Positions 3,014 through 53,349 of a stretch of 64,000 nt of DNA are shown piece by piece. The stretch comes from Aplysia californica (taxonomy: Eukaryota): positions 126,826 to 190,825 of the forward strand of contig NW_004797279.1 in assembly GCF_000002075.1 (NCBI RefSeq), read 5' to 3'. The position numbers and the translations under genes were made by a program. The notes below the pieces were generated by a model. That model did no database searches, was not told where the DNA came from, and saw only the letters and a program-made list of their open reading frames with translations. Numbering within the stretch: the first letter of the stretch is position 1; each line of letters starts with the position of its first letter.

Positions 3014-4803
3014 CTAAAACAATTTTACTAGATAACATAAAAATTTTAAATAGTACAATTTCACTTTATAATTTGCCATAAAGGCCAATGGCCTTCATAA
3101 AATTCAAAATTCTGTTGGGACCAACGACGGAAAAAATGTCTTGCAATTTCATGCATTTATAATATTTCCTTCGGATCTCTCCAAAGTCCAGACATTCGGT
3201 TAAGATGTGGCTAATGGTAAAATCTGTGTTGCATTCGACACAGAACAGCTTCTCATCTCCTTGTAGGAGGTATTTGTGGGTCAGGGCCGTGTGTCCGATG
3301 CGCAATCGAGTAAAAATGACTTCGTCTCTTCTGGAGAGGTCCGAAGGATTTTGCTGTTCCAGTTTGGGTTTTATATTATACAATTTGTTATTTTCCTGTT
3401 TTTTTCCAATGGCTCCCCCAAAGATTGGAGGTGTACTTTTTTACTTTATTTTTAAAGTCAGTCTGTGGGAGAGTGTTTGTCGTTGATCCCAACAGAATGG
3501 ATGAGGCTTTCTTCGCCAGATCGTCTACCTGCTCGTTTCCTCGGATGCCCACATGGCTAGGTATCCATGCGAACATGATGTTTTTTCCTGTTCCAGATAG
3601 TGTATGAATTTTCTGTTGTAGCCTAACTATTTTTGGGTGTAGGAGTGTGTAGTTTGTGAGTGAGGTGATGCAAGACAGAGAGTCAGAAAGGATAAGGAAA
3701 GATTTGTTAGGAGAATTTTCTACGGAGTCCAGTGCCATGTCAATGGCAGTGGCCTCCGCAGAGAAAATGGAGGCTTCAGGATGGAGTCTCCTCTGGTGTG
3801 TACTGTTGGGAGATAGGGCTGCGGCGCCCACTTCATTGTCTTTTTTGGAGCCATCCGTGAAGATGAGCTCCGCACCGTGGAGTCTTTTGTATTCTGCTTT
3901 AAAAGTTTTGGTGCTTTCTTTGTTGTGTGTGGTCAGCTGTAAGTCTACTTTTGCCTTGGTGAGGTGCCACGGAGGGAGGTCGGGGAAAAGAACTTGTTGG
4001 AAGTCTTGTTTGGAAAAGTGTAAGTTTTTGAGGTCCTCAAGGATTCTGAGGCCGAAGGGTTTGATGAGCTTTTCGTTGTTTTAGAATTTGTTTATGGTTT
4101 CTGGGTTTGTTTTAAAAATGCAGTTGTGCGCTGGATTTTCTGGTGTTGAGCTCTGTTTAAATGCGTATTGTAGTAAGAGTTGTGTGCGTCTGAGTGAGAG
4201 CGGTGGTATGCTTGCCTCGGCCTGGAGTCTCTCCACCGGGGAAGTGCGGAAAGCCCCCAGAGCGAGGCAGAGTCCTTGGTTTTGTACTGGGTCTAGCATT
4301 TTCAGGATGTGTGGTTTTGCCGATCCATAGACTTGACAGCCGTAGTCAAGCCTGGACCGGACAAGGGAGATGTACAAGAGGAGAAGTCATTATTGGGACC
4401 TCTACGCAGTGCTGCAGACCCCGGAACAGGTACAGCTCCGGGCCGAACGCCAATCAACCCCTGGATTCAGACTCGCACTGTATGAGTGCCCGCGGGGGGA
4501 AGCACATCGAGGCCCACTTATGGAGAACAATGCGAGACCGGGCCCAGATGTACTCTGGACGAGGCCACTAGAGGTTGCCGCTTACCTAGACTGCCGCCCT
4601 CCTGACGGAGGCCAGCCAGAAAAAAAAGAAGAAGAAGGTGTTTTGAGTCCCCGCCCCACTCAGGATGCGATAGAATTTTCAAAGCGTTTAATGCTTTCTG
4701 GCACCTCACTCGAAGGTCTTTGATGTGTGGTATGAATGTGAGTTTTTTGTTGAATGTAACGCCGAGGAAACAAGCTTGGTCCTGGATGGGAATCCTTTCC
4801 CCG
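2813..4803 (-). mobile_element. 5'-truncated I-group (Nimb-like) LINE: RT C-terminus, RNase H, zinc-knuckle C-terminus; disrupted
   Basis: ORF pieces FLGVTFNKKLTFIPHI, LVRSRLDYG..VYGSA, RNase H (IFTDGS..SIFSAEATAI..LSDSLS..WIPSHVGIRGNEQVDDLAK) and RLRIGHT..C..C..HILTEC. Stops/frameshifts near 4081 and 3388. (AAAC)n 3' tail. Flanking 9-bp direct repeat TAAGACTTG at 2804-2812 and 4804-4812 (TSD). Confidence 0.9.
4387..4636 (+). mobile_element. Nested ~250-bp 5'-truncated retroposon inserted antisense into the LINE
   Basis: Interrupts the LINE reading ...GGDSKHLL|LLYISLVRSRLDY. GC-rich, ends in A8(GAA)3. Translates to ...LYECPRGEAHR...DVLWTRPLEVAAYL, resembling a non-LTR ORF C-terminus. Confidence 0.65.
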
Positions 4804-6114: not shown

Positions 6115-9100
6115 TTATTTTGCTTTTCCTTGGTTGGCCACTTTGGCCTGAGCCGCTGCAACCTCCTCCTCAGAGGCAAGGTAAAAATGCTTCACTGGAC
6201 GTAGGTTCTCATCCAGTTCATACACCAGAGGGATGGCTAGAAGAGAACGAAGAAAAACAAACTTGGAACAAAAAAACAACGATTTCAAATTTAACTCAAA
6301 ACAAAAAAGGCTATTTTAACACATATTGCCATAAAACCATAATCCCAAACATGAATTCAACAGGGATAATCAAACTTCAATCCCGAAAGAACCTTGAACA
6401 TTCTAACTTAACTTTAAAAGTCACTGGCAGGCCCATTTAATGAACACTTATAAAAAAAACCTTTAAAAAAAATTGTATTTAACTTTCCTTGACAAATGGT
6501 ATAGTCAGACGTGAGTGAATGACCCTCAATATTTTTCATAAAATGTATTTTTCAAAATAACTTTGAAATTAAACTTGGATATCTGGAAAAACTGCACTTA
6601 TAAACACTTCCATCTTGTAAGTCAGTCAAAGATCAATTTCGGCACATAAACATACCCTGCAGTTCCTAAAAACAGACAGGACAGCATCCCACAAAATGAG
6701 GTCATTGAAGAACTGTCAAACATAAGACTGTATTTTTTTTTTAAAACAGTAACATATTTATCCCAACATCCTTATCATTCCCACCAGCTAAAAACTAATA
6801 CAGAGAATCAAAACGAACAAGAAAACTTAAACATAAAAAATAACAAGAGAAAAATGTGAAGAGAAGCACTCACCGGTGGGGATGTTGAGTCCCACGATGT
6901 CTGTGTCAGACACGTTGTCCAGGTACTTGATGAGGCCCCTCAAGCTGTTGCCATGGGCAGAAATCAACACTCTCTTGCCAGACTGCCAGGAAAGAGTTAT
7001 TTTCAAATTTATGCAACTTCAGTGAAACGGCTGTTATTCTCAGAGTTATGTGGTTTCAATGAATGGAGAGTTTATTCTCAAAATTATGTGTTTTCAATGT
7101 TTACGCTCAAAAGTTTTTTTGTTTGAAGAAATATCCATTGACCAGGGTCTATACAGTTATGGGTGGGTTCTTTGCCTTGTATGCAAAAGAGTGAGTTAAA
7201 TTTTCATGTGAAGAATTTTCTTTTAACACTTAGAGTACCAAAGGCTCAAAATAGTGAAAACCCTTCAAGTACCGCATCAGTTCAGAACGCTGAAGCCATG
7301 GTAGAATTTTTTTTTATTAAAAAAACCTTGGAAGCCCAAGAAACACGCTTTAAAAATTAATAGAGGTTTATCAACCATTCAGCTATCATATAAAGTGAGT
7401 TCCTTTGGTATTTACTTCAGTGCAGTGCATCCATTCGTTATTTAATTACGTTTAGTGAACCTGGTTGTGTCGGTGACTAAAGTCGCCAGCGGTAGTGAGC
7501 ACATACTACGGCCTGGCAACTAAAGTCATCTTTATGCTTGGATGTAGTCCACTCAGCCCAAGATAGCCCAAGGTCAAAGCAGTTTACTCCCCATGTAAAA
7601 CATTTACAATCATGCAACTACCAAACTATTTCCCAGTGCTTACAGCTGGTCTTAAAAAAACTTCTGTCTCAACACAGTTCTTGACCTAAATTCATTGGAG
7701 GCCCATCTTCCTACTCCTCTGACTCACCCAAGGACAGTGTAGTTGCTGTACTTATGGCAAATAATAACTCTCTATCACACAAAAACATGGAAGCATTGAA
7801 AGTTGCTCACCCTTGATTATTCTGAATTCCCAGTCCGTTTCTTTTTTTTAAATCTCAAGAGGTACAAAAGAGCCATCTTGTTATTAAACCAAATGTATTC
7901 AAATGCAATACTCATGGCAGGCAAGGCATTGTCAGTTCCACAAAATATTTTTGTCCTTGTCCTCTAGATTATTCCTCCTTGGAAATAATATTATTTTCTT
8001 ACATAAAAGCATACTACAATTCTTCCTTCAATTTCCTTCTTTAGTATAATAAACACTGCAAGAAGAATCAGACAATTCATTATTAATTAAAACAAATTTA
8101 ATATTATTCACATAAGCCTGCTTTGAATCAAATCCCATCTACAATGTAAAAAGTAATTTGAGGAGGTTAATCACAATTGGGATACCCTAAAGAACATTTA
8201 AAACGCTAAAGCCTTCAAAGTAAATAATAAATAATAAATAGCATTTGTATTGCGCACGTCCGTACTCGAAACAAGCTCTATGCGTTTTACACTATATTAT
8301 TACCCCTGCAGACCATAGAACACTCAGAAACATTCTAAGCTTCCCAGGAAGCATACAATGCAAGCAGCAGGTTAAGCGCTCAAACACTAACAAACTAACA
8401 AGATCTTTCACTGTCTATAGCTGGGTACCCATTCCCACCTGGGTGAAGTGGGGAAAATTCGTGTAAAAAAAGTGCCATTCCCAAGGACACAACGTCGGGC
8501 CCGTGGCTCGAACCCCTGAACCAGCAACTTCACGAGTACGAGTCCGGTAGCCTATATCATTATGTTGTGGAGTTGTACATGCAGTTCACAGTGACTCAGC
8601 TTAATGATGACTCGATCTCACTACAAACGAATTAGGACACCAGTGGTAATACTGAAAAAAAAAGAAAAACTCCAAGGTGGTCCACTGCTCACTAGGAGGA
8701 AGATTCCAGGCCACAAACAGTGAGACACTAACCTTGATGGCAGGAACAATTTCATCATACCAGAAGGGCAGCACACGTGCCACAGTGTCCTTCAGACATT
8801 CACAGGCTGGGATCATGCCCTGATCCATATTCTGCGGGAATAGGTAACAGTTGGTACAGTGAATATGCTTACTAGACAATAGGGCAGGTGATGTAGAAAG
8901 ACTAAAAAATCTGTAACACGTAACACAGTGACATGACATAATACAATGCAATACTAGCAGTCTAAATTGTAATCAATATATCTGCTCATGCACTAAAGTA
9001 AAGGTTACCTTGCCACATGAGCACAGACCCGTCATTCCACCATACAATTTCCTAATATGATTTTTATCTTTCAGACTTGATATGCCTCTCCTCACTTTAG

Positions 9101-33600: not shown

Positions 33601-35974
33601 CTCTTGTCTGAAATCTTTAGAGCGCTGTGGCACCTCTGGCAACATAATTTTTATACTTCATTTTTACATCTAGATCTATCTGGAAAAAAATGTTAATATA
33701 GTTTGGCTTCCAAGCCATGTCGTCATTGATGGCAACCAGATCGTTGACCACGTTGCCAAAGAAAGAATCTCTAAAACTACCTGGGCAAAACAACTAGTAA
33801 AATCTCATTCTCTGACATGAAACCGGAAATAACCCCTCGCATCCTCGTGGTTCCAAAATTTTGGAACCAACACACAACATACCCGAAGGAGAGGAGGCCC
33901 CTTTTTTTGCTTGGCGTGCAACATTTCACTGTTCAACTCATTCTGACGGAATGTGTCTACTTTGACTATAATATACGTGTAAAATACGTCAAAAGTAGAA
34001 AATATCAACCGTTTTTTACTTCCGTTAATCCAAGGAAGATTTTGTTTTATTAAAGAAATTGGGATTATTTTATAAGATATAAAAATATACAGTTCTCGGT
34101 GTGCATATATACACGGATACTTAAATGCATAAATAAGTCTTTACCGTATTTACAAAGATTCCTATAAATGTCTGTCCCGTCTTTTTTAAAATATATTTGC
34201 AGCTATAATACTTGTTGGCATTTACATGAGCGAAATTGAGTCTATAGTACCGTAAAATACCTTAATTTTCTGACCACTTACAACCTATACCAAGATTTAA
34301 ACTGCATTTATAAAATGGAACATTTTGGGCGTACATTGTTAGAGCCCGGAGCCGATCTGTAGAACGGACTAGACTTTGGTTCATTACATTTATTTTGATC
34401 CGGACGTGTTATCGCATTCTGCAGGCATTTACAGATAGAAAACTACGGAGACGCATGGCAGCCTTTTGATGTGCTGCTGGCATCAACGGGACACGTGTCA
34501 GCCTTCTGATGTGCTGCTGGTCATGATTTTTTTTTTCCTCCATACACACTATCGTGACCTTGGAGAACCAAAAGCGTCTGATTTTTTTTAGAATGGACTG
34601 TGCCTAAAATATGATAGCTTTTTCCCCTACTTGAAAGAAAATCTAACCGCATGCACAAGGATCCAATTAAACAGAACCTGCTCTAACGGTCACCTGTCCA
34701 AAATAATCGCATGAATAAACTTGTTTCCGCCCCCGCCCCCCCCCCCTTTCTACGTTTTCCCGATTCTGACACTAAGTCTTCCACTTGTCTTTTGTTCTCG
34801 ACCATGTGTAGCCATCTTGGACGTTTTCGACTGTACTGTCAAATTGGGTTTCGACGTACATATTATATGTGCAGTGGATCTGTGGGTAAACGGTCTCCAA
34901 AATGTCCCCAGAGACGAGCGTCCGCCGACGTGGACTTCTACCTTAACTGGGCGGACTATAAGTACGGCTTTGGGGATGTCTACGGCAACTTTTGGCTCGG
35001 CCTGGAGAAAGTCCACCAATTGACGTTCAAGGAAAGTATTGTTGTCGTTGTCGTTAACATGTTTAGGGTTCCATTCAGTTTGAAGGATGAGAATGGAGAA
35101 TGAAGAATGAGAATGGATTCCTTTTGTTGTGTCTTTAGGCCATTCCCAAAGGGGGGACATTAACTTTTTTCACAGTAGAATTGTAAATGGGCAGATTCAA
35201 CAATGTCGTGCTCATAACTGTGCCTGAACTGGAACCGGGAACTGCTGCTTTTTTCTTAATCCTTACTATCGTCAATTTTCCTCTTACTTCTTTTTATGTA
35301 TGTTACATGCGTGTGACCCACTATTGTTACATTTTTGTGACCCATTATCTCCGGGGTGCCTCGATAGTCGAAGCAGACTTTGAGCTGTTAAAGGTAGATA
35401 GGTGAGCAGGCTAGAGAGGTGAGCAGAGTATGTCTGATTCCCTGTAAAGACTTCTCTGGTGACATCCACCACCCCTTGGCGCTCATGTGATTTTTTTTTT
35501 TTTAATGCAGTTGCAAGCACCTCTTCTTAAACAAACAGATTTGTTTTAGGTTAAAACAGTAATTGACATTCATTTTTGTCGTTTTTTTTAATTTAACAGA
35601 GACGGTACGAACTGAGGATTGATATCACTTTCAACGGACAGGACTATTATGCTAACTACGATAACTTCACTCTCTTTGGAGAGGCGGAGAACTACAGAAT
35701 CCGGGTATCTGGATATTCGGGAAATTCATCTGATGGACTCACCTACCACAATGACCAGCCTTTCACAACCAAAGACCGCGACAACGATGCGAAAAGTTCC
35801 AACAACTGCGCCGTGGAGTACCACGGTGCTTGGTGGTACAAGGCCTGCCACGACTCCAACCTCAACGGCAAATGGGGAAGTCAGGAATACGGCGAGGGCT
35901 TGGTATGGGGCACCACCACCGGCGATTACGATTCGGCGACTTTTTCTGAAATGAAGATTCGACCCCTTGATTGA
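30686..35974 (+). CDS. Secreted fibrinogen C-terminal domain protein (FReD; ficolin/tachylectin-5/MFAP4-like), ~242 aa
   Basis: Exons 30686-30752 (signal peptide MAPSYNILTLIGPLCLMLISGT), 32428-32477, 33145-33261 (..VVCDTVTDNGGWVVMQ), 34912-35031 (RRASADVDFYLNWADYKYGFG..FWLGLEKVHQLT), 35600-35974 (YELRIDI..FTTKDRDND..NCAVEYHGAWWYKACHDSNLNG..EMKIRPLD*). Phases consistent; the last donor reads GA. Confidence 0.92.
31804..32165 (+). mobile_element. Non-autonomous retroposon (family D) with Nimb-type tail; second copy at ~35150-35520
   Basis: Two ~360-bp homologous copies in introns 1 and 4 of the FReD gene. This copy ends GCGCTCATATGACCTTATGCAGTTGTGAGCGCCGTAAAAC + (CTAAAA)n. Confidence 0.75.
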
Positions 35975-36864: not shown

Positions 36865-37535
36865 GGCGGACCCTCCATAGGCGGCACATGACTTGTCGGC
36901 ACGTGCCGTGCCACAGGCTAATACCCCCTCCTTCCATAGACCATACCACAACACAACACAACACATCACAACACAACACATCACAACCATGGATTCGTCT
37001 GATGAAGATACTCTGATCATGTTAGCAATTCTAAATGATCGGGAAAAAGAGGGAAAAGCGGATCATGTGTTGCAGAGAATATTTTCTATTGAGGAGTAGT
37101 AGAGGAGAGTTTCATCGAACTTTCAGCTCCTTGATGAGACTTAAAGATGAGATATTGTTTTCAGAAACGTTACACTACACATTGAAATTTTAAAAAAGTG
37201 AAACTCACCTGCTGGTAGACATTTACTGTCAATATATTCCCAGACTTGTTTTCTTTGATCTTTGTTGTAATACTCCGGGTTTTGGGGGTCCCAAAGAAGC
37301 GGTCGGTCTCTCACAAGTTCAATAATTTCTTTCTTGTAGCCATCCATTTTGGCAGCACACTACACAAAAAACGAGCAATGCTGCAAAGCAAGGCACGCAA
37401 TGTTTCGTCGTGGCTGTCGTGCCGTCAATGGAGTGTGCAACTCTAAATGGTTGTGTTTAATTTAATTTCGCACGCGTGCCATGTGCTGTGTGCTATATGT
37501 GCCGCGTGCCGTGTGCCGTCTATGGAGGTTCTGCC
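36865..37535. mobile_element. Internally deleted PIF/Harbinger DNA transposon
   Basis: TAA TSD (36862-36864 / 37536-37538). TIRs GGCGGACCCTCCATAG / CTATGGAGGTTCTGCC. Minus-strand first exon of a MADF/Myb-like protein (37347-37209, MDGYKKEIIELVRDRPLLWDPQNPEYYNKDQRKQVW). Plus-strand decayed transposase N-terminus (MDSSDEDTLIMLAIL..RGEFH). Confidence 0.88.
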
Positions 37536-38368: not shown

Positions 38369-41300
38369 TCAGTCAATCAGCAGGCCTAGGACATGAGAAA
38401 AAATAAGCTGTGTGGAGCAAATTAAACATTAATACAACGCTATAAATAAACATGTATTTGGACAGTGGAAATCAGAACATGACAACGAGGAATACAGACA
38501 CAGGAAGTGACAATGAGTACAAAGAGGCATTAGGAAATTTCGAGTTGCGTATCTTGTAAACTTCTAAACACAAAAGAGTTATTACTTGCCACGAAGCACT
38601 ATACAAACCATCAACATATTCATAACAAAAAACAATAACATGATCGACGAAGTGTTGCAAAATAATAAATAAAACCCACTTCTCAACCACTTGAGTTTAA
38701 AAGGTAGATTTATCAGTAATAACATCCGGATAATAAAAACCCAGTATGGCTACAAGTTACATTAAAATAACCATTTCAATGATGAACTTACTGTTATTGC
38801 TTCCGTTCTTTTTCTTCTCTTCTGCTGGCGCACGGCCTTCACTTACAAGGAAAGTAAAATAGTACTGCAGTACAAATACATGTCCGTTTCGCCTTTGACA
38901 ATTAATCTCCTCTTCAAGTCAAGAAAAACGTAGACTTCAAAATTATCATCTTCAGCCTCATCAAGCCATGCATTCCCTTTACGATTTCTTTTTGATGACC
39001 TCTCTACTGTACCCCAAAAGAGAATTCCATTGGCATAAGTCCTGCCTTCCCGGCCGTATTGTTTTCAAAGCTCCTCTTGGAGCAGAAAGGTTTGAAAGCC
39101 AAAGGTTTGAAAGCCAATGTCATTTATAACATAACCACTGGTGAAGTGACATTTACCTGACATGGCCGCAGTGAGAAAACACGCCATGACCCCAGAGAAG
39201 AGCGCCCGAGGAGCCACATCAATGACGTCACGTTTCCTATGTGACGTCACAGCAGTCAGGGCACCAACCATCATGCCCAGGGCGAGGAGGTCAGAGAACC
39301 CACACAAGGCGTACGTGGCGATGGTCGCTGACCGCTCCTGGGGGACAAAATACATTAAACAATGTATTTTAAAAAAAAAAAAAATAATAATAATAATAAT
39401 AGATAGCATTTGTATAGCGCATATCCCCGCTCAGCAGCAGGCTCTATGCGCTTTACACTATATTATTACCCCAGCAGACCATAGAACACTCAGAAACATT
39501 CTCAGCTTCCCGGGAAGCATACAGTGCAAGCAGCCGATTAAGCGCTCAAACACTAACAAACTGACAAGATCTTTCGCTGTCTATAGCCGGGTACCCATTC
39601 CCACCTGGGTGAAGTGAGGAAAATTCGTGTTAAGTGCCTTTCCCAAGGACACAACGTCGGGCCCTTGACAGGATTCGAACCCACGACCTTACGGTTGCGA
39701 GTCCGAGAGCCTAACCACTAGGCCACCGACGCCACAATTCTCATTGGAAAATAACAGCATCGCACACAGAACAACGGTGTTACTTGTGGGTCTTGGGATA
39801 GGGAGGGGAATGGGAGGCGGGCGGGAGGGGTGTATGAGGGTTCCCTGTTTTCAGGAGGGATATCAAATCATAGAAGGCAAGAGAAAGAGAGTGGGGGGGG
39901 GGGTAGGTTGCTAATTGGCAAATAAACAAAGAAAGAAAGCCAGACTAAGACAGAAAAGCAGGTAGTCGAATCAGTAGAAGAGAAAAATCAGAGAAGCATA
40001 CGATAGGACAGAGAAAAAAGCCAACAGAGATGAGTGAAACGTTGAAAAAAGAGACGGGCATAAAGACAAATAGGGGTAGATAGACACATAGAGACAGACA
40101 GGTGAAAGGAGACGGAAAGTAGAAAATATACAAGGGGGTAGAAAGAGGGGGGGGGTAGAAGGGGGGATAGAAAGGGGGGGTGAGAGAGAAGCGGGAAGAG
40201 AATTGGGGGCGGGGGGGGGGGGTTAGTGTAAATAACTGTAAAACTGTAAAGACCAGGGCAATGGGGTGTGACGGCAGAAGATATTCGGAGACGTCTCGTG
40301 GGAGCACCCAGGAACTATTCGGAGACACACTCCCGCACACAGCTGCACTGCTTTGGGAGGTCAAACTGCGTATCGTTTGCTGCAGATCACACATATAGCC
40401 ACTAAAACTGTCACAAATCAATTATTTTCTAGAAAATTTCAAACCCAAGTGCAAATTATCAAATAATGGGTTAAATCAGGGGGGTATGCCCCATTGTAAC
40501 CCCCAGATTTGTTTTACTTGGTCTAGAGGCACAAAGCATTTTGATTGGTCTATCTCCATCGGAGACATCTCCGAATATCTTCTGCCGTCACACCCCATTG
40601 ATACCTAGATACTAGGTTTATATATGGTAACGCACCGGATACATTAGGGTACTATTTCGTTAACCTTTTGTGGACACACACTCTGACTATTCGACAACAC
40701 TTGAAGACTCACTGTTTTGGGGTACTTAAATCTAAATAACTTCATTATTCATACATAATGATGATGCTTTTTTTATATGAAACTTTCTGACTTTTGTATC
40801 ATCTTTCAAGTGAGCCACAACATGGCCTTTGATTTTCTGTCGCATGTATGTGACCGTCAAGTCTTTAAAGAGTTGTTTTTTTAAAGGGTTATTTTTACCA
40901 TTGTGTTGTTGTATTGCCAGTGGGTAATTTGACTTCTGAAATAGTTCGACTACGGCCAACAACTGCTGGGTTTTTTAAAATTATATTATTGTAATAACTA
41001 AGCAGTTAAAACATACTTACAGACATTACACCACCTTTCAGGACGAGACCAGACATGTCCAGGATGACGTCATCAGTTTGTGTCCACGACCAAGTTGCAT
41101 TTGGCAAAACTGTTGTGTAGTTCAAGAGAGCTACGTTGTTAGAGCGTACCTGGAAGGAGCAAGTTGTTGAATACATGAGAACCTCCATACAGAAGTACCA
41201 CACAAGGCCAATATGGTCGTTCATTCCGAGACTTGCAAACGAGAACGTACAACGGGAACTAATTTCTTAACTTTTCTGCTGACTAATGAGGAAATAGGGG

Positions 41301-44300
41301 GTGCCAACTGGCACGACCGGTTTGGTTCGGTTCGGTTTGGTAGGCGGGGCTAGCCAGATGCAGGGCGCAAAGCGACCATTGTGGCACAATCCGATCGCAC
41401 GACTCGCAGCCTCAAAAACATACGCGTTTATTTTCAGGCCGCGAATTGGGCGCTCGGTTTGTCGATCCCTCAAGGGACACTGGGTATACCAGACAGATGA
41501 AGTGCGGGGACTCAAAGGTCTCAACCAGCAAGATCATAGAGAATCTGGTACTGCCTTCAGAAAAGGTTTGTGCTTTATACATGTATGTGAGAGAGAAAGT
41601 GAGATTGAGAGAAAGAGAAACAGAAAAACTGTACTCGATTTTTTTTTAAAGACACTCAGACAAAAGGAAGAGGGGATACTAGTTATTAAACTGACTATTA
41701 AATTCAGTACCATTAATTTTTATGCGATAACTCTTTGAATTCTTTTACCAAAGACACTGCTGTACAGAGAGAACAGATCTAACGGCATGTGGTTCTGGCT
41801 TCTCAAAACCTCAAACAAGCAAACGTAAAGTAAAAAACTAGGACGTCTAAGCACAAAGACGGGCAACCAAAGTCTTGCTTGGAGCTGCTCTTACCTTGCC
41901 AAGGTCCTCAAAGGCAAGGAACTCATTCACAAACACCTTGACACCCAACATCCGGGCCACTACGCGACAGTCGTCCGGTACCACGCCCATCAGGAAGGCC
42001 ACTGGCCACAATAAGTAAGAGCTGATGAACTGTGGGTACGTAAGGTTACAACATTTAAAACTTAGAACACATAGGTTCTTTCGAAATGCCCACATAGGTA
42101 TCCCCCTTCCCATGGTGCGATTAAATAGTGTTGACTTCAGGGGCAACTCCGAAAATTGGTTATCACACATTCAAACATATCCCTACCTTCATTCCTCTTC
42201 CCTTTCTATGCATCCCGATACACAAGTTGTACTGTAATAGTAACGTAGTCAGAATCAATCTCTTCATTTTGTGGCCCTGAGGGCAATTTCCAGCCACGTG
42301 TCAAGCAGATTTTATTTTTATATCTTTAAAGCTCTGTTATCAATTAAAGTTATTTGGCTCGCCGTACTCTTTGTTAAAGGTGTATGTTCCCCGCAAGGAA
42401 TTAGACAAGTCCTATTTACCTGGTTTGTAAACAGCCCGTAGATTGCCTGAAACTTTCGCAGCCTCCAAATCATTATATATGCGTGGGTCACTTGACACAA
42501 TCTCTGACAAAAGCACTTTGTAAAAGGAAATGGGTGGACTGTAACATGAAATGCCTCACAACAGCTGCACTGATAACGGGGAGAGACGAAATCTGACGAG
42601 AAACCGTGATCAAGAGAGATGTCACTTTACATTAGAGGGCAGTATTCTGCGTAACATCCCGTTCAAACGCAAACAGCAGAGAGATCTGGCATGATAAAAT
42701 AAGACACAAATGACATGTTTAGAAACTCAATGCAGAAGAAATAGATCTAGTCCTTTTACATAAATATGTTATCCTCCCCATCCCTTATTTTTAAAAGTTT
42801 TAAATCGTTTGATCTTCCAAAAGAAATCATACGATCCTCCAAATGAAATCGCATGAAATTCCAAATGGAAGACTCACATATGACTTCACAATAACTTATT
42901 TGAAAACTCCACGATATTCAGTCACTCAACAGCAATCCCTTGTAATCGAGCTGATGTACCTGAAATGAGAGCACCGGGTAGTTTGGCGGTGCGATGCCGA
43001 CCCGCGCTCCGAGCCAGGCCAGGGTATCGTTGATGAAGTCCAAGATGGAGAGGAAGGCTATGGCATGGACCAGGATGTAGGCGATGAGAGGTATGGCACT
43101 CACGGCCCCGGCAGAGGCCGCCTCGATCACACCACTTGTTGATCTGAGATATGAGTGAAAGTTGTGGGTACGGTTTCTTTTGTCAAATTTGGTATTTTCG
43201 GGTGCGTGTGTGTTTTAAAGGATTGCTGTACAATGAATGGGCAGGAATGCATAGAACGTGCCAATGTGTATGCAGTCGAAATTTTACTGTACATGTATTG
43301 TGAAGCGCCCACAGGCATCAGGAACAGGGCCAATAGAATGTTTTTTTAGAACGGAAACCCCGGGATGGGGAACCACATCTTCAATAATCATTATGTTCCT
43401 CGCTAATAGCATCTATTCTAAAGACGTTCTTGACCATTAAAGCGTCGTGAGGAAAATATTTAGCTGTCTGCCCAGGATTTCGATAGAGTTAATTAATTAA
43501 AGGCAATAAAGTCGAAATCATCCAAGACGGCCACCCATTGTCGAGGAAAAGAGTGGTTTGCATAGACAGGTGGACGTGAATTATAATTCATAAAAAAGCA
43601 GGGACGTGAGAAATGGTCGTCTGTGCAGGTGATATTATCTTGGACAGATGGCCGTTTAAGCAGGTTCGACAGTAGATCTTTATATTATAATCGGAGTGTG
43701 CAGATTTTAATGTTTCCCTTTATACCAAATCCGTTACTCTTCAACGAGTCATCATTCAGTTTTGACCCATCTAACATGGACCAAACCCACCAGGACCCAC
43801 CTGGGTATAACCGGCGCCTTCTGTTTTCGTCGACCTGGAACATTCTCTGGGTAGAACAGTTTTCCCATCGCCAGAGCAGCAGGGGCAGACATAAAAGAGG
43901 CAGAGATCAGGTGGTTGGCTGGCGCCTGTAAGGTGGTGCAAAGTGCAAGGGGGCAAAGGCGGGAGGGGATGTCACTAATGTCAGGGTTTGATAATATGTT
44001 GATTGGACGTGTTACTATCGCCATGAGACTAATCATGGCGTTTTTTGTTCTGTTTGTGACCCCCACCACTCAGCGGTGGCAAAGAATAAAGCACAATTGC
44101 ATAGTGTTTATAGGTCTTTTATGAATATCACCCATTTACTGTGATGATATAGGTAGATATAACTTATTATTTCTGAATAAACTTCGAAAATGCATCACTT
44201 TTTCAAAATTACCTGTAGATCTATTCATCTTCTGAGAACATGTTTACCTCAAGCATCATTCTAAAATAGCCCTTCAAGTAAACAGATTGGCAGACAAATC

Positions 44301-47300
44301 GACTGGACGCGCCATTAATTCCTGTGCTTTAGAAACCTGTCATCTTTTTGCATGGGGGGGGGGGCGCTTACCCCATAGAGTATATAGGCGGCCATCGCGC
44401 CACCGGAGACTGTGGAGAATCCATTGGTCATGATGGCGTGTAGCTCTGACTTGGTCATCTGGTCCAGCAGTGGTTTTACAACAGGGATTGTCTCCGCCTG
44501 AAAGAGGTCATAACGTAAAGTAGCCTAGTCAGTAATTGGGAGTTTCTATGCTCGTGCTCCGTCTTTTTATAATGCAATATAATATCAACTATTACAGAGA
44601 ACAAAAACTACAATTGTAGTATGCCTTAATGATTATGTGGTCACAAAAATGCCTTCATTCTTGATTTTATTGACTGTGTGTTGTTGTCATTTCAATACTT
44701 ATGTGACTGCAAGTGACGTAATGTTGTTGATGATGTTTTTGCTTTGGGAATGGCCTTATTACCTATGCTTATGTGCTTCTTCTTCCTTCACCCCCTTCTT
44801 TTTCTCCTCCACCCACCCCCCTTCCCACAACAAACAAAATGCTTTCTTTCTCCTTGTTCTCCTCGGAGTCTTTCTCCTCCTGCCCAATGAACAACGAACT
44901 ACACAAGTGCGTGGTGGTGGGGGGGGGGGGGGGGTTGGCGGGTGCACTGATGTGGTTTGCTCCTTTTTTCCTATCAAACATCTATTGTCCTTATCTCTCC
45001 TCCCTCTTTGTGTTTGTTACTCTCTTTTTTTTTCTTTTTTTTTGGGGGGGGCGCTGCTCCTGCGGCGACAAGGTCGTGTTTGCATGGGTCCTGGAATTTT
45101 TGACAGGTAGACCACAATATGTGAAGCGAAACAACACAAAATCTGACACAATTCTTTGTAACACCGGCGGTCCTCAGGGGTGTGTTTTGTCACCAGTTTT
45201 GTATACTATATATACCAACGATCATAGAAGTATATATAAAACAACACGCTTAATTAAGTTTGCAGATGACTCCGCTATTATTGGATTAATAAACCATGAT
45301 GAAAAAGAGTATTTCGAAGAAATATGTAGGTTTTTTAAATGGTGCAACTCAAATTTTCCAAAAGTGAACCTCTCAAAAACAAATGAAATGATTTTTGATT
45401 TTAGAAGAGAAAAATCAACAATCCCACCACTCGTAATTGAACAAGAAACTATTGAAATCACGGATTCATGCAAATATCTTGGCCTTACAATAGACAACAA
45501 ATTTACATGGCAAAACCACGTAAACAATATCGTTAAAAAAGTAAATCAGAGGCTGTACTTTCTGAGGAAACTTAAGTCTTTCAATCTGAATCCATCCATC
45601 CTTCATTTTCTACACCACCACAATAGAAACTTTGATAAATTTTGGAATCACTTGCTATGGTAGCAATCTGGGAAGGCAACACATTATAAAACTAAATAAG
45701 TTGATAAAAAAGGCATCAAGAACAATTGGTAGAGACCTAAGTAACTTTGAATATCTGCACAAGACAAACGTTCTAAAAAAAGACGGAAATAATGCTTAGT
45801 GACCATAGCCACCCACTGACATCGGAATTTCAACTATCGACCCGCAGTAAACGATACATTTCCAAAAAAGCAAGAACAGACAGATATAGAAATTCATTCG
45901 TACCAACTGCAGTGAGGTTACTGANNNNNNNNNNNNNNNNNNNNNNNNNNNNNNNNNNNNNNNNNNNNNNNNNNNNNNNNNNNNNNNNNNNNNNNNNNNN
46001 NNNNNNNNNNNNNNNNNNNNNNNNNNNNNNNNNNNNNNNNNNNNNNNNNNNNNNNNNNNNNNNNNNNNNNNNNGTCCCAGCCCGTGAGACATGTTTTTAC
46101 TTGGCATAATGTCCTGTCTTGTTGTGCGTTTGCGTGAGTGCACCTTTAAGTCTAACTTTTGTAAGCCATTGTTAACGACCAAGACAAATTTCTCCCTGCG
46201 AGATGAATAAAGATTGTCATTGTCATTGTCATTGTCATTGTCTAATCTTCGTCACTTATATTACCTAACTGCACTGCAAGTGCCGTAAAACGCTTACTAA
46301 GAAAATAAAACGACCCACATGACACTTACCCATCCGACAAAGATGTTGAAAGCGGCGTGCAGCGTCTCCATAGGTCCTGTACCCAGACTGACCCTGATTA
46401 TGTGTGTGATGGCGTCAATGGCGATCTGCATGGCGCCCAGGTGGTAGAGCACGCTGATGGTAGAGCTGAACACAATGATGGTGGACATCACCTGGGTAGA
46501 CACACGTGTACAGGAACTCACGATAGTTGTTGATGGTGCTGGTTTTGGTGATGTCATTGTTGCTATTTGCTGTTGTTCTTATTGTTGTTGGTGGTNNNNN
46601 NNNNNNNNNNNNNNNNNNNNNNNNNNNNNNNNNNNNNNNNNNNNNNNNNNNNNNNNNNNNNNNNNNNNNNNNNNNNNNNNNNNNNNNNNNNNNNNNNNNN
46701 NNNNNNNNNNNNNNNNNNNNNNNNNNNNNNNNNCTGTCGTTAATGCGTCGTTATTTGGTTTTTGTGGAGGTCGAAGTGGCTTTAATTGTTATGGTTGATG
46801 ATGTAGCTATGAACATCCTGAAATGTAATGTCGTGTAAAACTTAGGCAAACATCTTCACCCAAAAAAGGGTGGGGCTACAGCTGTTTGTGGTGGATGTTT
46901 TTAATTGGCCATAGTGGTTTCGCTTCTTTTGTTTCAGCTGTTGTTTGTGTTGTGCATTGAGCCGGGGACGGTGGAACAAGTGATAGGTGGATAAATCGGA
47001 CAGTCAGTAGGCTTAGGAAAGTTGTTGTGATTATGTGTAAGAAGTGCTCGTCTTGCTTGAATTGGGTTTTGGGTTGTTGTTGCTTGTTGTTTTTGTGGAG
47101 GGTTTGGTTTGGGTTTTTTTGGGGGGGGGTGTGTTGGGTTTTTGTTTTTGTTTTTTGCCAGTTCATTTCTCAGTAACAATAATACAAAAGAAACACGAAG
47201 AAATATATATGAAAGGTGGATATAACGAATGAAGCGTCAACTGATTTACGCACCGGATACCACCCCCACCCCCAAAAAAAATAAATATTAAAATAAAATA

Positions 47301-48544
47301 ACCCTACAAAAAAAAAAGGCTTTGAACCCTAGTTCTCATTCAAAATAAATACAATAAATGAATAAAAACAATTCAAGTACGAGTAAAAGACTTGAAAGGT
47401 ATTTTGCTAGCATTTTACTCACCCTGAAAGCAAAGAAATGGTCTCCATAGCTCTTGCCGAAGACGAAGCTTGTCCCCTTGTCTGTATGGTCCAAGTACTC
47501 AGTGACGCGGTCAGCGAGCCACTGTGGGAACGTCCGGGGATTCCCCGTGTTATAATTTGTACTGGCTGTTGTTGTCGTAAGTGTAGTTATTGTTGGCTCC
47601 AGCGNNNNNNNNNNNNNNNNNNNNNNNNNNNNNNNNNNNNNNNNNNNNNNNNNNNNNNNNNNNNNNNNNNNNNNNNNNNNNNNNNNNNNNNNNNNNNNNN
47701 NNNNNNNNNNNNNNNNNNNNNNNNNNNNNNNNNNNNNNNNNNNNNNNNNNNNNNNNNNNNNNNNNNNNNNNNNNNNNNNNNNNNNNNNNNNNNNNNNNAG
47801 TCCAGTACATGTATTTTGTCGATTTCGAAATCTAAGGAAATGGAGCTCGGGGGAAGTTTTTTGAATGGACCAATCCACCTCGGAAGCTGGCAGCTTAGAT
47901 CCTGCCTATCAGGGTTATCCCTGGCTGAGTGGGATACAACACTCTTGCACAGAGACGGAGATGCACGTACTAAAAAAGTATACTTCCCCATTCGGGAATC
48001 GAATATTCACATTTTCTTATGTAACAGCGAAGAGCCTAACCACTACACAGCTGACGTCAGTGTAAACTCTTCGGAACATTGCCACAGGTTGAACTCAATA
48101 CTTTCAAGAACAGTGAAACCAGCTCTGACAATCACTTGTAAAGGATATATCCATTCGTACAAATGGCCACTTCCCATTTTCTCCCTTGCGTTTTTAGTTA
48201 CAGGTACATTATATAATGACACTGTGTAAGACGGCCACTTTTCTCCTCGACAATGGGTGGCCGTCTTAGACAATTTCGAGTGTACCTACTTGAAAACTGG
48301 CGTAACCCCAGCGTGTCCGAAGAACGAGCAGGCCGAAGACAAACTGCAGAAGCAAGCCCCATACTACGGGCCGCCAGCGCACCTGTACAGAAAAAAATGT
48401 AAGGGGTAGGTGTGGAATGACTTCTTGAATTCACTAACTGTGTTATTGAAAAACATTATGTTGAAGGATTTATAGTTCGCAGAATATCATACAATGTATC
48501 ATCATATTCATTTCAAAGTAAACCTCTTATATAATATGTCTTCT

Positions 48545-51556: not shown

Positions 51557-52572
51557 GTAGTAGTAATGAATAATAATGATAATAATATTATTAACATTAA
51601 TATTATACAAAAATATACATATCAATGTACAATGTACACGTAGATATGTAATGGTTGTGTTTTCCGTTTTCCTCTTCGACAAGTCAAGAACAAAAGAACT
51701 TTCTGCCACAATTGGTTTGATTCGACGCTTTTAACCCCTTCCTCCTCCCTCGTCCCCCATCGTTTCCCCTTTTGTAGACAGGCCGCATTTCTCGTCTTTA
51801 ATTATTGAATAGAGATAATAATAAGACTAGTCTCACATCCCTNNNNNNNNNNNNNNNNNNNNNNNNNNNNNNNNNNNNNNNNNNNNNNNNNNNNNNNNNN
51901 NNNNNNNNNNNNNNNNNNNNNNNNNNNNNNNNNNNNNNNNNNNNNNNNNNNNNNNNNNNNNNNNNNNNNNNNNNNNNNNNNNNNNNNNNNNNNNNNNNNN
52001 NNNNNNNNNTTCAAGGTTGTTGAGTTCGGACGTTAAATTAAATAACGCTTATGCAACAGGCATTTAGACTTCGATTTTCTAAAATATGAAATCGTGCTGA
52101 CTCAATCTGGCAGAGGCGTCCAAGTATGTACTTACCAATATATCCTTGATTTTGTTTTGGGCGAGAATGGACTTGAGATGGAGGAGCAAGCCTTCCTAGC
52201 CGCCATCCCCACGTTAGGAGATAACTTGGAGTACAGACAGGCCACAGTAAGCACACATGACACTGCCAATAGCGTCACAGACTGTTCATCACCGAAAGAA
52301 TGATGGAAGGCAAACCCGAGATATACACAAAGTCCAATGAAAAACAGGAGTTGCAGAACGTTTGACACGGCTCGTTTGTGTGTGGAACAACAGGAGATTA
52401 CATTTTGACGACATCCCAGTAGAACTGACGTCACTTTGGTCGGTTGCATGTCCTCGGTGTGGGAACGTTCCGCGCCGTCCTCAAGGCCGACCATGTCCAC
52501 CATTTCCTCAGCGTGAACACTTTTGTCTCCTCCTGCCTCCACATCATAACTATTACGCGTATTTCCTTTCAT
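38369..52572 (-). CDS. SLC28 family concentrative nucleoside transporter-like protein, ~610 aa
   Basis: Twelve GT-AG exons in consistent phase: 52572-52136, 48958-48814, 48382-48290 (VRWRPVVWGLLLQFVFGLLVLRT), 47521-47423, 46491-46330, 44497-44372 (MTKSELHAIMTNGFSTVSG), 43925-43801 (HLISASFMSAPAALAMGKLFYPE), 43143-42960, 42029-41895 (GVKVFVNEFLAF), 41149-41021, 39337-39157 (ERSATIATYALCGF), 38385-38369 (GLLID*). Minus-strand AATAAA near 38190. Confidence 0.94.
39384..39735 (-). mobile_element. tRNA-derived CORE-type SINE (family B), near-identical to 26061-26398
   Basis: Very high identity to the copy at 26061-26398, so a young family. (TTA)n tail. Confidence 0.9.
40259..40600. mobile_element. 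MITE with ~39-bp terminal inverted repeats
   Basis: CAATGGGGTGTGACGGCAGAAGATATTCGGAGACGTCTC ... GAGACATCTCCGAATATCTTCTGCCGTCACACCCCATTG. No obvious TSD. Confidence 0.85.
45083..46242 (+). mobile_element. 5'-truncated Rex1/Babar-like LINE (RT domain) in an SLC28 intron
   Basis: FLTGRPQYV..NTGGPQGCVLSPVLYTIYTND..KFADDS..KYLG..QRLYFLRKL..RYRNSFVPTAVRLL. Frameshift near 45600. AATAAA followed by (ATTGTC)n tail. Confidence 0.88.
49630..49790. repeat. (CCT)n-rich simple repeat
   Basis: Direct inspection. It accounts for the poly-E/S/L/R ORFs in the track. Confidence 0.85.
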
Positions 52573-53349
52573 ATTTTGGTATCTCAGTAGACTTTCAAAC
52601 GAAGCAACACAAATAGCAATGAAACTTGTTGTTATTATTATTTGGGATTTTTTTTTCAGAAGAAAAAGTGTTCCAATATTTCTTTGCATGGAAAAAAAAC
52701 GTTCTCAACAGAAAGAAATGGACATTGTTATAACAGTGGTTGTACCGCACAATAGCTGCGATGATAGGAGAAGGCTGCGCACGCTTGTTCTAATGAATGA
52801 GGTAAGAAACTGTTTGGAAATATCATCAATTGTCAGAACACGTATGCCATTCTGCAAAGCTGCAACATATAATGTCTTGCTATAAGAACAATGAATTGGC
52901 GGTTGTTGCACCGGAGATGACAACGTTACTTGGCTTCACAAATTCATCTTTTGACAAATTTGCAGTAGTTAGTGATGCTATCGCCAGTGTAAGGTTAAGG
53001 CATTCACTTTCTACAGTCTTGCTAAAGTAACAACAAAATGAAAATGATTTTGAAAACACACACAACAAATAACAACTGTCTTTTAACACTCATGGAAAAT
53101 AATTGCCGATATCAAGAACAGAAAGTATGATGATAAGAGAGAAGTCATGATTTGCAATGCCAAACGAGGGATACTGCCTGCAATGTTGATCATAATATCT
53201 GTATTGAAATGAGAACCTCCTTTTCATAAATAAAGCGAAAATAATCTCGTGTTTAGGTTATATTTTTAATATACACTATCTATTCGTCACCATGTAAACC
53301 ATATTATGTAAAGTAATTTATTTTTGACTATGCATACTATGACATGGCA

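What the first reader, a model, noticed from the sequence alone, without database searches (positions are those of the whole stretch)
39157..46491. SLC28/CNT transporter with a remodelled substrate-binding site
Seen: the HP1 motif reads NIFVGWAE (family consensus NIFVG[Q/M]TE), TM4 reads STVSGGAMAAY (consensus TIAG[S/T/G]VL.AY) and TM7 reads CGFSDLLA (consensus CGFAN..S). The HP2 NEF glutamate and the sodium-site Asn are retained. Known from the Vibrio cholerae CNT structure: Gln154/Thr155/Glu156 and Val188 contact the base; Glu332, Asn368 and Ser371 bind ribose. By manual motif alignment this protein has Q->W, T->A, V->A, N->D and S->A in an otherwise intact 12-exon gene. Inference: it may carry a non-nucleoside or modified-nucleoside substrate.
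Basis: partly seen in the sequence, partly recalled or inferred. Interest (0 to 1): 0.7.

Follow-up and report, generated by a model that had tools for sequence, protein, structure and literature searches.

The report
Ancient mollusc transporter with rebuilt pocket
This intact sea-hare gene belongs to a snail-and-bivalve subfamily of nucleoside-type transporters that share a rebuilt cargo pocket while keeping the sodium-site residues, so it likely still pumps cargo in with sodium but likely favours a purine-type or modified nucleoside over ordinary uridine, which is untested.

Summary
Observation confirmed. Twelve minus-strand exons (52689-38369, 11 GT-AG introns) splice to a 649-aa protein identical to Aplysia californica XP_005089805.1. 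Alignment to vcCNT and human CNT3 confirms Q154→W351, T155→A352, V188→A385, N368→D600 and S371→A603, with E156, E332, F366 and the Na1 and proposed Na2 residues kept.

New here: the gene belongs to one orthologous clade across 18 named gastropod and bivalve species (support 100/99 with most pocket columns removed). Trp is in 19 of 19 clade rows and 0 of 277 outside.

Corrections: V→A is nearly private (clade has Thr, 18 of 21); N→D is gastropod-only (11 of 12 versus 0 of 10 bivalves); human N565A still binds uridine. Remodelling is also common: 29 of 116 diverse representatives depart at 4 or more of the nine contacts, and another molluscan clade has lost the ribose glutamate.

Best reading (0.45): a Na+-coupled elevator symporter for a purine-type or modified nucleoside. 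Non-nucleoside cargo 0.25, ordinary cargo 0.2. No docking or transport data; no paper found on the clade. New variant of a known family.

The parts
52136..52689 (-). Exon 1 (aa 1-185 of the RefSeq model; a second in-frame ATG at 52572 fits orthologue lengths better); N-terminus and first helices
48814..48958 (-). Exon 2 (aa 185-233)
48290..48382 (-). Exon 3 (aa 234-264), Pfam Nucleos_tra2_N
47423..47521 (-). Exon 4 (aa 265-297), Pfam Nucleos_tra2_N
46330..46491 (-). Exon 5 (aa 298-351): TM3, IH2, HP1a; F345 (Gly/Ala in others), Na1 Asn346 (codon 46347-46345), Trp351 = vcCNT Gln154 (codon 46332-46330)
44372..44497 (-). Exon 6 (aa 352-393): HP1b and TM4; Ala352 = Thr155, Glu353 = Glu156, Ile355 = Pro158, Asn376 = Gly179, Thr380 = Ser183 (Na1), Ala385 = Val188 (codon 44398-44396)
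43801..43925 (-). Exon 7 (aa 394-435): TM5; Ser406 = human CNT3 Ser396 (proposed Na2)
42960..43143 (-). Exon 8 (aa 435-496): scaffold TM6 with Tyr457 (Asn in canonical paralogues) and His461 (Asn in canonical molluscan paralogues)
41895..42029 (-). Exon 9 (aa 497-541): HP2 with NEF; Glu532 = vcCNT Glu332 (codon 41924-41922), retained
41021..41149 (-). Exon 10 (aa 542-584): HP2-TM7 loop, longer than in bovine CNT3, with beta-strands in the model
39157..39337 (-). Exon 11 (aa 585-645): TM7 and TM8; Phe598 = Phe366 retained, Asp600 = Asn368 (codon 39292-39290), Ala603 = Ser371 (codon 39283-39281); Cys596, Cys637, Thr640 = proposed Na2 residues
38369..38385 (-). Exon 12 (aa 645-649 and stop)

Best explanation
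The gene encodes an intact SLC28/CNT-family protein of an ancient gastropod-plus-bivalve subfamily whose base-binding side is rebuilt, and it likely works as a sodium-driven, elevator-type symporter that likely prefers a purine-type or chemically modified nucleoside over uridine or cytidine. Shown: gene integrity, residue equivalences, clade membership and constancy of the new residues. Inferred from family structures: Na+ binds the kept Na1 site (N346, V349, T380, V381) and probably the kept Na2 site (S379, S406, C596, C637, T640), and a sugar is held by E532 and F598 as in other CNTs. Inferred and unmodelled: Ala/Gly at 352 removes the hydroxyl that positions the water used for pyrimidine N3, a water that purines displace anyway. 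Trp351 sits at the position that helps set purine versus pyrimidine choice in human CNTs and could stack on a larger ring opposite Phe598. Thr/Ala385, a smaller residue at 454 in most members, loss of the HP1b proline and the TM6 changes would reshape the side pocket and gate. Ala603 would weaken the 3'-hydroxyl contact. In gastropods Asp600 adds a third acidic group, which would suit a cationic base.
For: Gene intact and identical to P0001. CNT fold: AlphaFold model mean pLDDT 84.5, top Foldseek hits bovine and human CNT3, vcCNT and CNTnw with target TM-scores 0.78-0.90. Clade of 21 rows monophyletic at 100/99 with the HP1, TM4, TM6 and TM7 motif columns dropped, and branching as bivalves versus gastropods; again one clade among 172 rows. 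W 19 of 19 inside, 0 of 277 outside; S371→A 20 of 22; T155→A/G 19 of 19; E332 23 of 23; F366 22 of 22. Matched-species identities 57-83% for clade pairs versus 65-89% for canonical pairs: constrained, a little faster. Literature: E519A/Q abolish and N565A keeps uridine binding (PMC7440666); F366 is strictly required and purines displace the T155/E156 water (PMC4139061); S319G/Q320M broadens hCNT1 selectivity (PMC7440666); Q341C, T342C and V375C still transport with altered selectivity, and G335C, Q341C, P345C and V375C raise the Na+:H+ ratio (PMC5465479), four positions changed in this clade. S→A also occurs in an otherwise canonical pocket (Owenia P0069).
Against: No transport, binding, docking or Aplysia expression data. 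The Ser371 contact with the 3'-hydroxyl is described as important and 3'-deoxyuridine barely binds vcCNT (PMC4139061); the only Ser mutants I read of are prolines, so the effect of Ala is unknown. Tolerance data are for single substitutions, not four or five together. P0001 and a bivalve member score below the TIGR00804 cut-off (386.8 and 432.3 versus 442) while the canonical Aplysia paralogue passes (502.3). In 5 of 7 matched species pairs the clade is less conserved than the canonical paralogue.
Confidence: 0.45

Rival explanations
1. It is a sodium-coupled carrier of a non-nucleoside small molecule, for example an aromatic or cationic osmolyte or vitamin (homarine, trigonelline or thiamine-like; candidates from my own knowledge, not from a call), held between Trp351 and Phe598 with Glu353, Glu532 and, in gastropods, Asp600.
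For: Four to five of nine contact residues depart from every characterised CNT state, on both the base and the sugar side. Scaffold TM6 residues changed with them. A remote CNT relative, Bacillus SpoVV, transports dipicolinic acid (PMC5629000, passages). The protein falls below the TIGR00804 cut-off. Aplysia keeps a canonical paralogue (P0103), so the copy was free to change cargo.
Against: E332, F366, E156 and G153 are invariant in the clade and bivalves keep N368, whereas other molluscan SLC28 paralogues have dropped E332 altogether, which shows what a fuller departure from the sugar site looks like. SpoVV is only a remote homologue.
Confidence: 0.25
2. It is an ordinary broad-specificity Na+/nucleoside symporter; the substitutions are mutually compensating or tune kinetics, and the paralogue differs mainly in tissue or regulation.
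For: Single substitutions at Q341, T342, V375 and N565 of human CNT3 keep nucleoside transport or binding. Ala at the S371 position occurs in 18 of 275 rows outside the clade. Core anchors and both cation sites are kept.
Against: Trp at the Q154 position is seen in 0 of 277 outside rows and fixed in 19 of 19 inside. Clade-wide switches concentrate in the contact residues (4 of 9 versus 36 of 435). All nine contacts are identical or near-identical across vcCNT, CNTnw, NupC and human CNTs (bioRxiv 10.1101/2023.02.03.527023, passages).
Confidence: 0.2
3. It no longer moves solute: it acts as a ligand sensor or as an ancillary protomer in mixed trimers.
For: Bulky Trp at the HP1 tip, loss of the HP1b proline and larger TM6 residues could hinder the elevator movement (inference).
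Against: Both cation sites and all transport-domain elements are conserved; there is no added signalling domain; no precedent was found in the papers read.
Confidence: 0.07
4. It is a decaying or relaxed duplicate, or a gene-model artefact.
For: The clade evolves somewhat faster than the canonical paralogue in 5 of 7 species pairs; the assembly has N gaps in several introns.
Against: Open ORF with canonical splice sites; orthologues in 18 named species with fixed new residues; two orthologues from transcript-length contigs; alignments are ungapped across the junctions that flank the N gaps.
Confidence: 0.03

Closest known systems
Human and bovine CNT3 (SLC28A3; PDB 6ksw, 8tz1)
   Same: Best sequence and fold matches among solved structures (E about 1e-110, 37-38% identity, target TM 0.87). 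Same N-terminal helices plus core, Na1 and proposed Na2 residues, E343/E519/F563/G340 equivalents.
   Different: Q341→W, T342→A, V375→A (Thr in most of the clade), N565→D (gastropods), S568→A, plus G335→F, P345→I, G366→N and TM9 Asn changes. Not an orthologue of vertebrate SLC28A3 despite the database name: the named horse CNT3 lies outside the clade.
Vibrio cholerae vcCNT (PDB 3tij, 4pd6) and Neisseria CNTnw
   Same: Same core fold (target TM 0.87-0.90); N149, G153, E156, E332 and F366 kept; G187 and L259 kept in the Aplysia protein.
   Different: Five of nine nucleoside contacts differ; has the eukaryotic N-terminal helices.
Human CNT2 (purine-preferring SLC28A2)
   Same: Carries a non-polar residue (Met) at the Q154 position, part of the substitution set that shifts hCNT1 towards purines (PMC7440666).
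   Different: hCNT2 keeps T155, V188, N368 and S371 (bioRxiv 10.1101/2023.02.03.527023). Trp is far larger than Met. hCNT2 itself was not aligned here.
Canonical molluscan SLC28 paralogues (e.g. Aplysia P0103)
   Same: Same family and species; 49.5% identical over the core.
   Different: They keep canonical contacts (91 of 107 fully aligned non-clade rows have no departure) and form separate clades.
Bacillus subtilis SpoVV (dipicolinic acid transporter)
   Same: Precedent for a CNT-like fold carrying a non-nucleoside (PMC5629000).
   Different: Only a remote homologue of CNTs; not compared by sequence here; the window protein is a close family member with most anchors intact.

Membership tests
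SLC28/CNT family | Pfam Nucleos_tra2_N + Gate + Nucleos_tra2_C above curated cut-offs, in order | tested here: met
   92.5/27, 46.9/29.6 and 194.5/32.3 bits
SLC28/CNT family | CNT fold with two helical hairpins and two unwound helices | tested here: met
   AlphaFold model pLDDT 84.5; all listed Foldseek hits with E below 0.001 are CNT structures
SLC28/CNT family | Phylogenetic placement among animal SLC28 proteins | tested here: met
   Nested among lophotrochozoan SLC28s
SLC28/CNT family | Na1 site residues (N149, V152, S/T183, I184) | tested here: met
   N346, V349, T380, V381; Ile→Val at a position where 23 of 140 outside rows also have Val
SLC28/CNT family | Homotrimer | not tested
   No complex job was sent; a pass would mainly reflect likeness to solved trimers
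Canonical nucleoside-transporting CNT (vcCNT, hCNT1-3, NupC type) | Nine nucleoside-contact residues in states seen in characterised members | tested here: not met
   5 of 9 depart in P0001, 4 of 9 in complete bivalve members
Canonical nucleoside-transporting CNT (vcCNT, hCNT1-3, NupC type) | TIGR00804 score at or above 442 bits | tested here: not met
   386.8 (P0001) and 432.3 (P0058); canonical Aplysia P0103 scores 502.3. The model is built for prokaryotes, so this is a soft criterion.
Canonical nucleoside-transporting CNT (vcCNT, hCNT1-3, NupC type) | Cation-coupled uptake of natural nucleosides | not testable with these tools
   Needs a transport assay
CNT3-type (2 Na+ : 1 substrate) | Proposed Na2 residues S369, S396, C561, C602, T605 | tested here: met
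   S379, S406, C596, C637, T640 in P0001; the first is Ala in most orthologues. Stoichiometry itself is untested.
Vertebrate SLC28A3 orthologue (database name) | Groups with vertebrate CNT3 | tested here: not met
   Horse CNT3 P0006 lies outside the mollusc clade

The most novel reading that the evidence does not exclude
A single SLC28 lineage fixed before gastropods and bivalves split has turned the CNT scaffold into a sodium-coupled carrier for a non-nucleoside or cationic solute, using a Trp/Phe aromatic clamp and two to three acidic residues. It would be the first animal SLC28 with such a cargo that I know of, and the conserved entry point into a wider, apparently undescribed radiation of molluscan SLC28 proteins with rebuilt pockets.
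Probability: 0.25. Interest if true: 0.7.

Novelty: new variant of a known kind. Interest (0 to 1): 0.45.

Why it matters
The characterised CNTs I read about all share a nearly fixed nine-residue pocket and carry nucleosides. A subfamily that has held a different pocket constant since the gastropod-bivalve split (Cambrian by my recall, not from a call) is a natural experiment on how this pocket sets selectivity, which bears on nucleoside-drug transport by human CNTs. It may also reveal a solute that molluscs have long needed to concentrate. It is mostly single-copy, annotated only as 'SLC28A3-like', and directly testable in oocytes next to its canonical paralogue. It is not unique: molluscs hold other SLC28 paralogues with more radical changes, which lowers the surprise of this one gene but makes the family as a whole a target for deorphanisation.

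Tried and rejected
Gene-model artefact at the W|A junction: rejected. My first splice had exon 6 one base too long and gave stops; corrected.

Aplysia-specific drift: rejected by the clade, except V188→A, which is only in Aplysia and Babylonia.

'Marine-only clade', suggested by the first hit lists: rejected when a fragment from the freshwater mussel Potamilus fell in the clade. It was not seen in the pulmonate, cephalopod, chiton or non-mollusc hits, but both 90% searches scored only 8000 candidates and listed 120 and 50% clusters hide members, so absence is not shown.

Dimorphilus P0173, top hit, is a tandem fusion of two canonical CNTs and was left out.

Kinship with the other remodelled paralogues: not supported; they form separate clades (quick tree).

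Nicotinamide riboside as cargo: human CNT1-3 do not import it (PMC7866510, passages); this neither supports nor excludes it here.

SCAM data for the TM6/TM9 Asn positions: no mention found in the main text.

Docking and dN/dS could not be run (no coordinates or orthologous coding DNA on the script machine). No complex prediction was sent.

Literature searches that found nothing on this clade: (search listings only, except one passage of PMC7703775, which merely lists SLC28 names in a clam mantle module). Subscription journals and all supplements were unseen.
Full report
Observation. Six-frame translation finds all quoted motifs on the minus strand. Exon mapping gives 12 exons from 52689 to 38369. 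[quoted passage not shown] The finding's span covers exons 5-11 only. Trp351 is the last codon of exon 5 and Ala352 the first of exon 6. Two orthologues on 2.2-2.6 kb Logan contigs with full ORFs, inferred to be transcripts, read the same GWAE. The RefSeq start adds 39 residues that orthologues lack, and residues 1-78 are unstructured in the model, so the ATG at 52572 may be the real start.

Residue equivalence. Alignments to PDB chains (3tij chain numbering is offset by 6, 6ksw by 69) are ungapped through the pocket elements. They give N346=N149, G350=G153, W351=Q154, A352=T155, E353=E156, T380=S183, A385=V188, E532=E332, F598=F366, D600=N368 and A603=S371. The nine contact residues are those listed in PMC4139061 (passages and sections 7 and 11), PMC7440666 (passages and section 8) and bioRxiv 10.1101/2023.02.03.527023 (passages). 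The protein passes all three CNT Pfam cut-offs, folds as a CNT (pLDDT 84.5, pTM 0.83; best Foldseek hits bovine and human CNT3), and scores below the TIGR00804 cut-off (386.8 versus 442) where the canonical Aplysia paralogue passes (502.3).

A conserved clade. Three homologue searches and one exhaustive search of 50% representatives were made. A 67-row IQ-TREE tree (rows chosen by me: 21 clade rows and 46 others) with the HP1, TM4, TM6 and TM7 motif columns removed groups the 21 rows at 100/99, with a bivalve branch (91/92) and a gastropod branch (97/93). A quick tree of 172 rows, with HP2 columns also removed, again gives one clade. Named species are Aplysia, two Elysia, Babylonia, Nucella, Batillaria, Littorina, Lottia, Gigantopelta, Mercenaria, Mactra, Mya, Potamilus, Pecten, Ylistrum, Mizuhopecten, Saccostrea and Pinctada (18), plus two unnamed contigs; several are partial models. 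One origin before the gastropod-bivalve split is the simplest reading.

Site counts over 23 clade rows, two of them redundant models, counting only rows where the site is present: W at Q154 19 of 19 (0 of 277 outside); A/G at T155 19 of 19; V188 is T in 18, A in 2, N in 1 of 21; A at S371 20 of 22 (18 of 275 outside); D at N368 in 11 of 12 gastropod rows and 0 of 10 bivalve rows (1 of 276 outside); E332 23 of 23; F366 22 of 22; E156 20 of 20. Further clade-wide changes in 17 near-complete rows against 100 canonical paralogues: G→F/I/V at 345, loss of Pro at 355, G→N at 376, N→Y/H at 457, N→S/H/T at 461, small→V/T at 602. Some switched columns (342, 630, 634) vary outside molluscs too, so their direction is unclear. 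Four of nine contact residues are switched against 36 of 435 core columns (p about 0.004); by pocket element 13 of 64 against 23 of 371 (p about 0.0007; elements were drawn after I had seen the motifs, and columns are not independent). Matched species pairs are 57-83% identical in the clade and 65-89% in canonical paralogues, the clade being lower in 5 of 7 pairs: constrained but somewhat faster.

What the changes mean. For a kept sugar site: E519A and E519Q abolish uridine binding in human CNT3 and F366 is strictly required in vcCNT, and both residues are invariant here; N565A leaves binding intact (Kd about 280 uM), so N→D carries little weight. Against: Ser371 contacts the 3'-hydroxyl and 3'-deoxyuridine barely binds. 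The only Ser mutants I read of are prolines, and Ala occurs in an otherwise canonical Owenia pocket. On the base side, T155 and E156 hold a water that pyrimidine N3 uses and purines displace, and the Q154 position is one of the four human selectivity residues. Q341C, T342C and V375C still transport nucleosides with changed profiles, and G335C, Q341C, P345C and V375C raise the Na+:H+ uptake ratio to 3.5, 4.6, 9.2 and 8.0 (PMC5465479, passages and section 6); all four positions are changed in this clade, which weakly points to Na+-only coupling. Na1 and proposed Na2 residues are kept. From this I infer a Na+-driven elevator symporter that still grips a sugar but likely prefers a purine-sized or modified base (0.45). 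A non-nucleoside cargo (0.25) has a precedent in the remote relative SpoVV (PMC5629000, passages). Ordinary nucleoside transport is 0.2, a non-transporting role 0.07, decay 0.03. Trp-Phe stacking and cationic preference are unmodelled inferences.

How unusual. Among 134 non-clade representatives kept (possible mammalian records removed first), 116 had all nine sites aligned; 50 had no departure from characterised states and 29 had four or more; 29 of 130 lack the E332 glutamate. This set is enriched for divergent proteins by its 50% clustering: among 107 fully aligned non-clade rows of the 90% searches, 91 had no departure. Of 17 divergent representatives looked up, 16 are from named animals (12 molluscs, two Dimorphilus, one Glandiceps, one Meloidogyne cluster) and one is unnamed. 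A 20-row, largely molluscan clade (SH-aLRT 97) lacks E332 throughout. So pocket remodelling has happened repeatedly in invertebrate SLC28s. What marks this clade is the unique Trp, slow evolution, near single copy and retention of the main anchors.

Novelty. Nine searches of the open library returned nothing describing this clade or the function of a molluscan SLC28; one clam paper lists SLC28 names in a mantle module without sequence detail (PMC7703775, one passage). PMC11241209 and PMC7866510 were read as passages only. Subscription papers and supplements were not seen. The protein is already in RefSeq under a generic name. Verdict: observation confirmed, interpretation partly supported, new variant of a known family, interest 0.45.

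Noticed in passing
Database proteins P0191, P0195, P0198, P0201, P0209, P0226, P0228, P0236, P0237, P0272 and 10 further rows: A separate, fast-evolving molluscan SLC28 clade (20 representatives, SH-aLRT 97; named members from Nucella, Lymnaea, Elysia, Haliotis, Plakobranchus, Solemya, Mya, Mercenaria, Mizuhopecten) lacks the HP2 ribose glutamate in every row and often N368 and S371 too; a stronger candidate for non-nucleoside cargo than the window gene.
   Followed up: partly
Database proteins P0070 and P0066 (Batillaria BaRGS_00024186 and _00024185): An apparent tandem duplicate keeps Trp but has Asn and Ser at the two TM7 sites, on a long branch nested among Asp/Ala gastropod rows: a natural partial revertant useful as a control.
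   Followed up: partly
Database protein P0271 (Meloidogyne cluster) and Dimorphilus P0230, P0302: A root-knot nematode SLC28 has Asp at N368 and Ala at S371 independently, with Asp at E332; an annelid clade is also remodelled.
   Followed up: partly
Database protein P0173 (Dimorphilus, 1225 aa): Two canonical CNT units in one predicted protein; tandem fusion or merged gene model.
   Followed up: no
window 34687-35971 (+), probably starting near 30580: Fibrinogen-related domain gene (Pfam Fibrinogen_C) ending 2.4 kb from the transporter's stop, tail to tail.
   Followed up: partly
window 17427-22652 (-): Serpin gene exons (Pfam Serpin at 20032-20304 and 17427-17834); repeated copies of a short stretch follow at 17110-17400.
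   Followed up: partly
window 6830-7018 (-): An exon resembling phosphoglycerate mutase (motif recalled; no Pfam match for this short piece).
   Followed up: no
window 44734-45920 (+), inside intron 5, and 3066-4386 (-): Broken retroelement remnants: reverse transcriptase (RVT_1) in the intron that splits the Trp and Ala codons, and an RNase H region near the window start.
   Followed up: partly
window 37210-37341 (-): Short MADF DNA-binding domain match just downstream of the transporter; likely a transposon-associated fragment.
   Followed up: no
window 52572-52689 (-): The RefSeq model starts 39 codons upstream of an ATG that better matches orthologue starts.
   Followed up: partly
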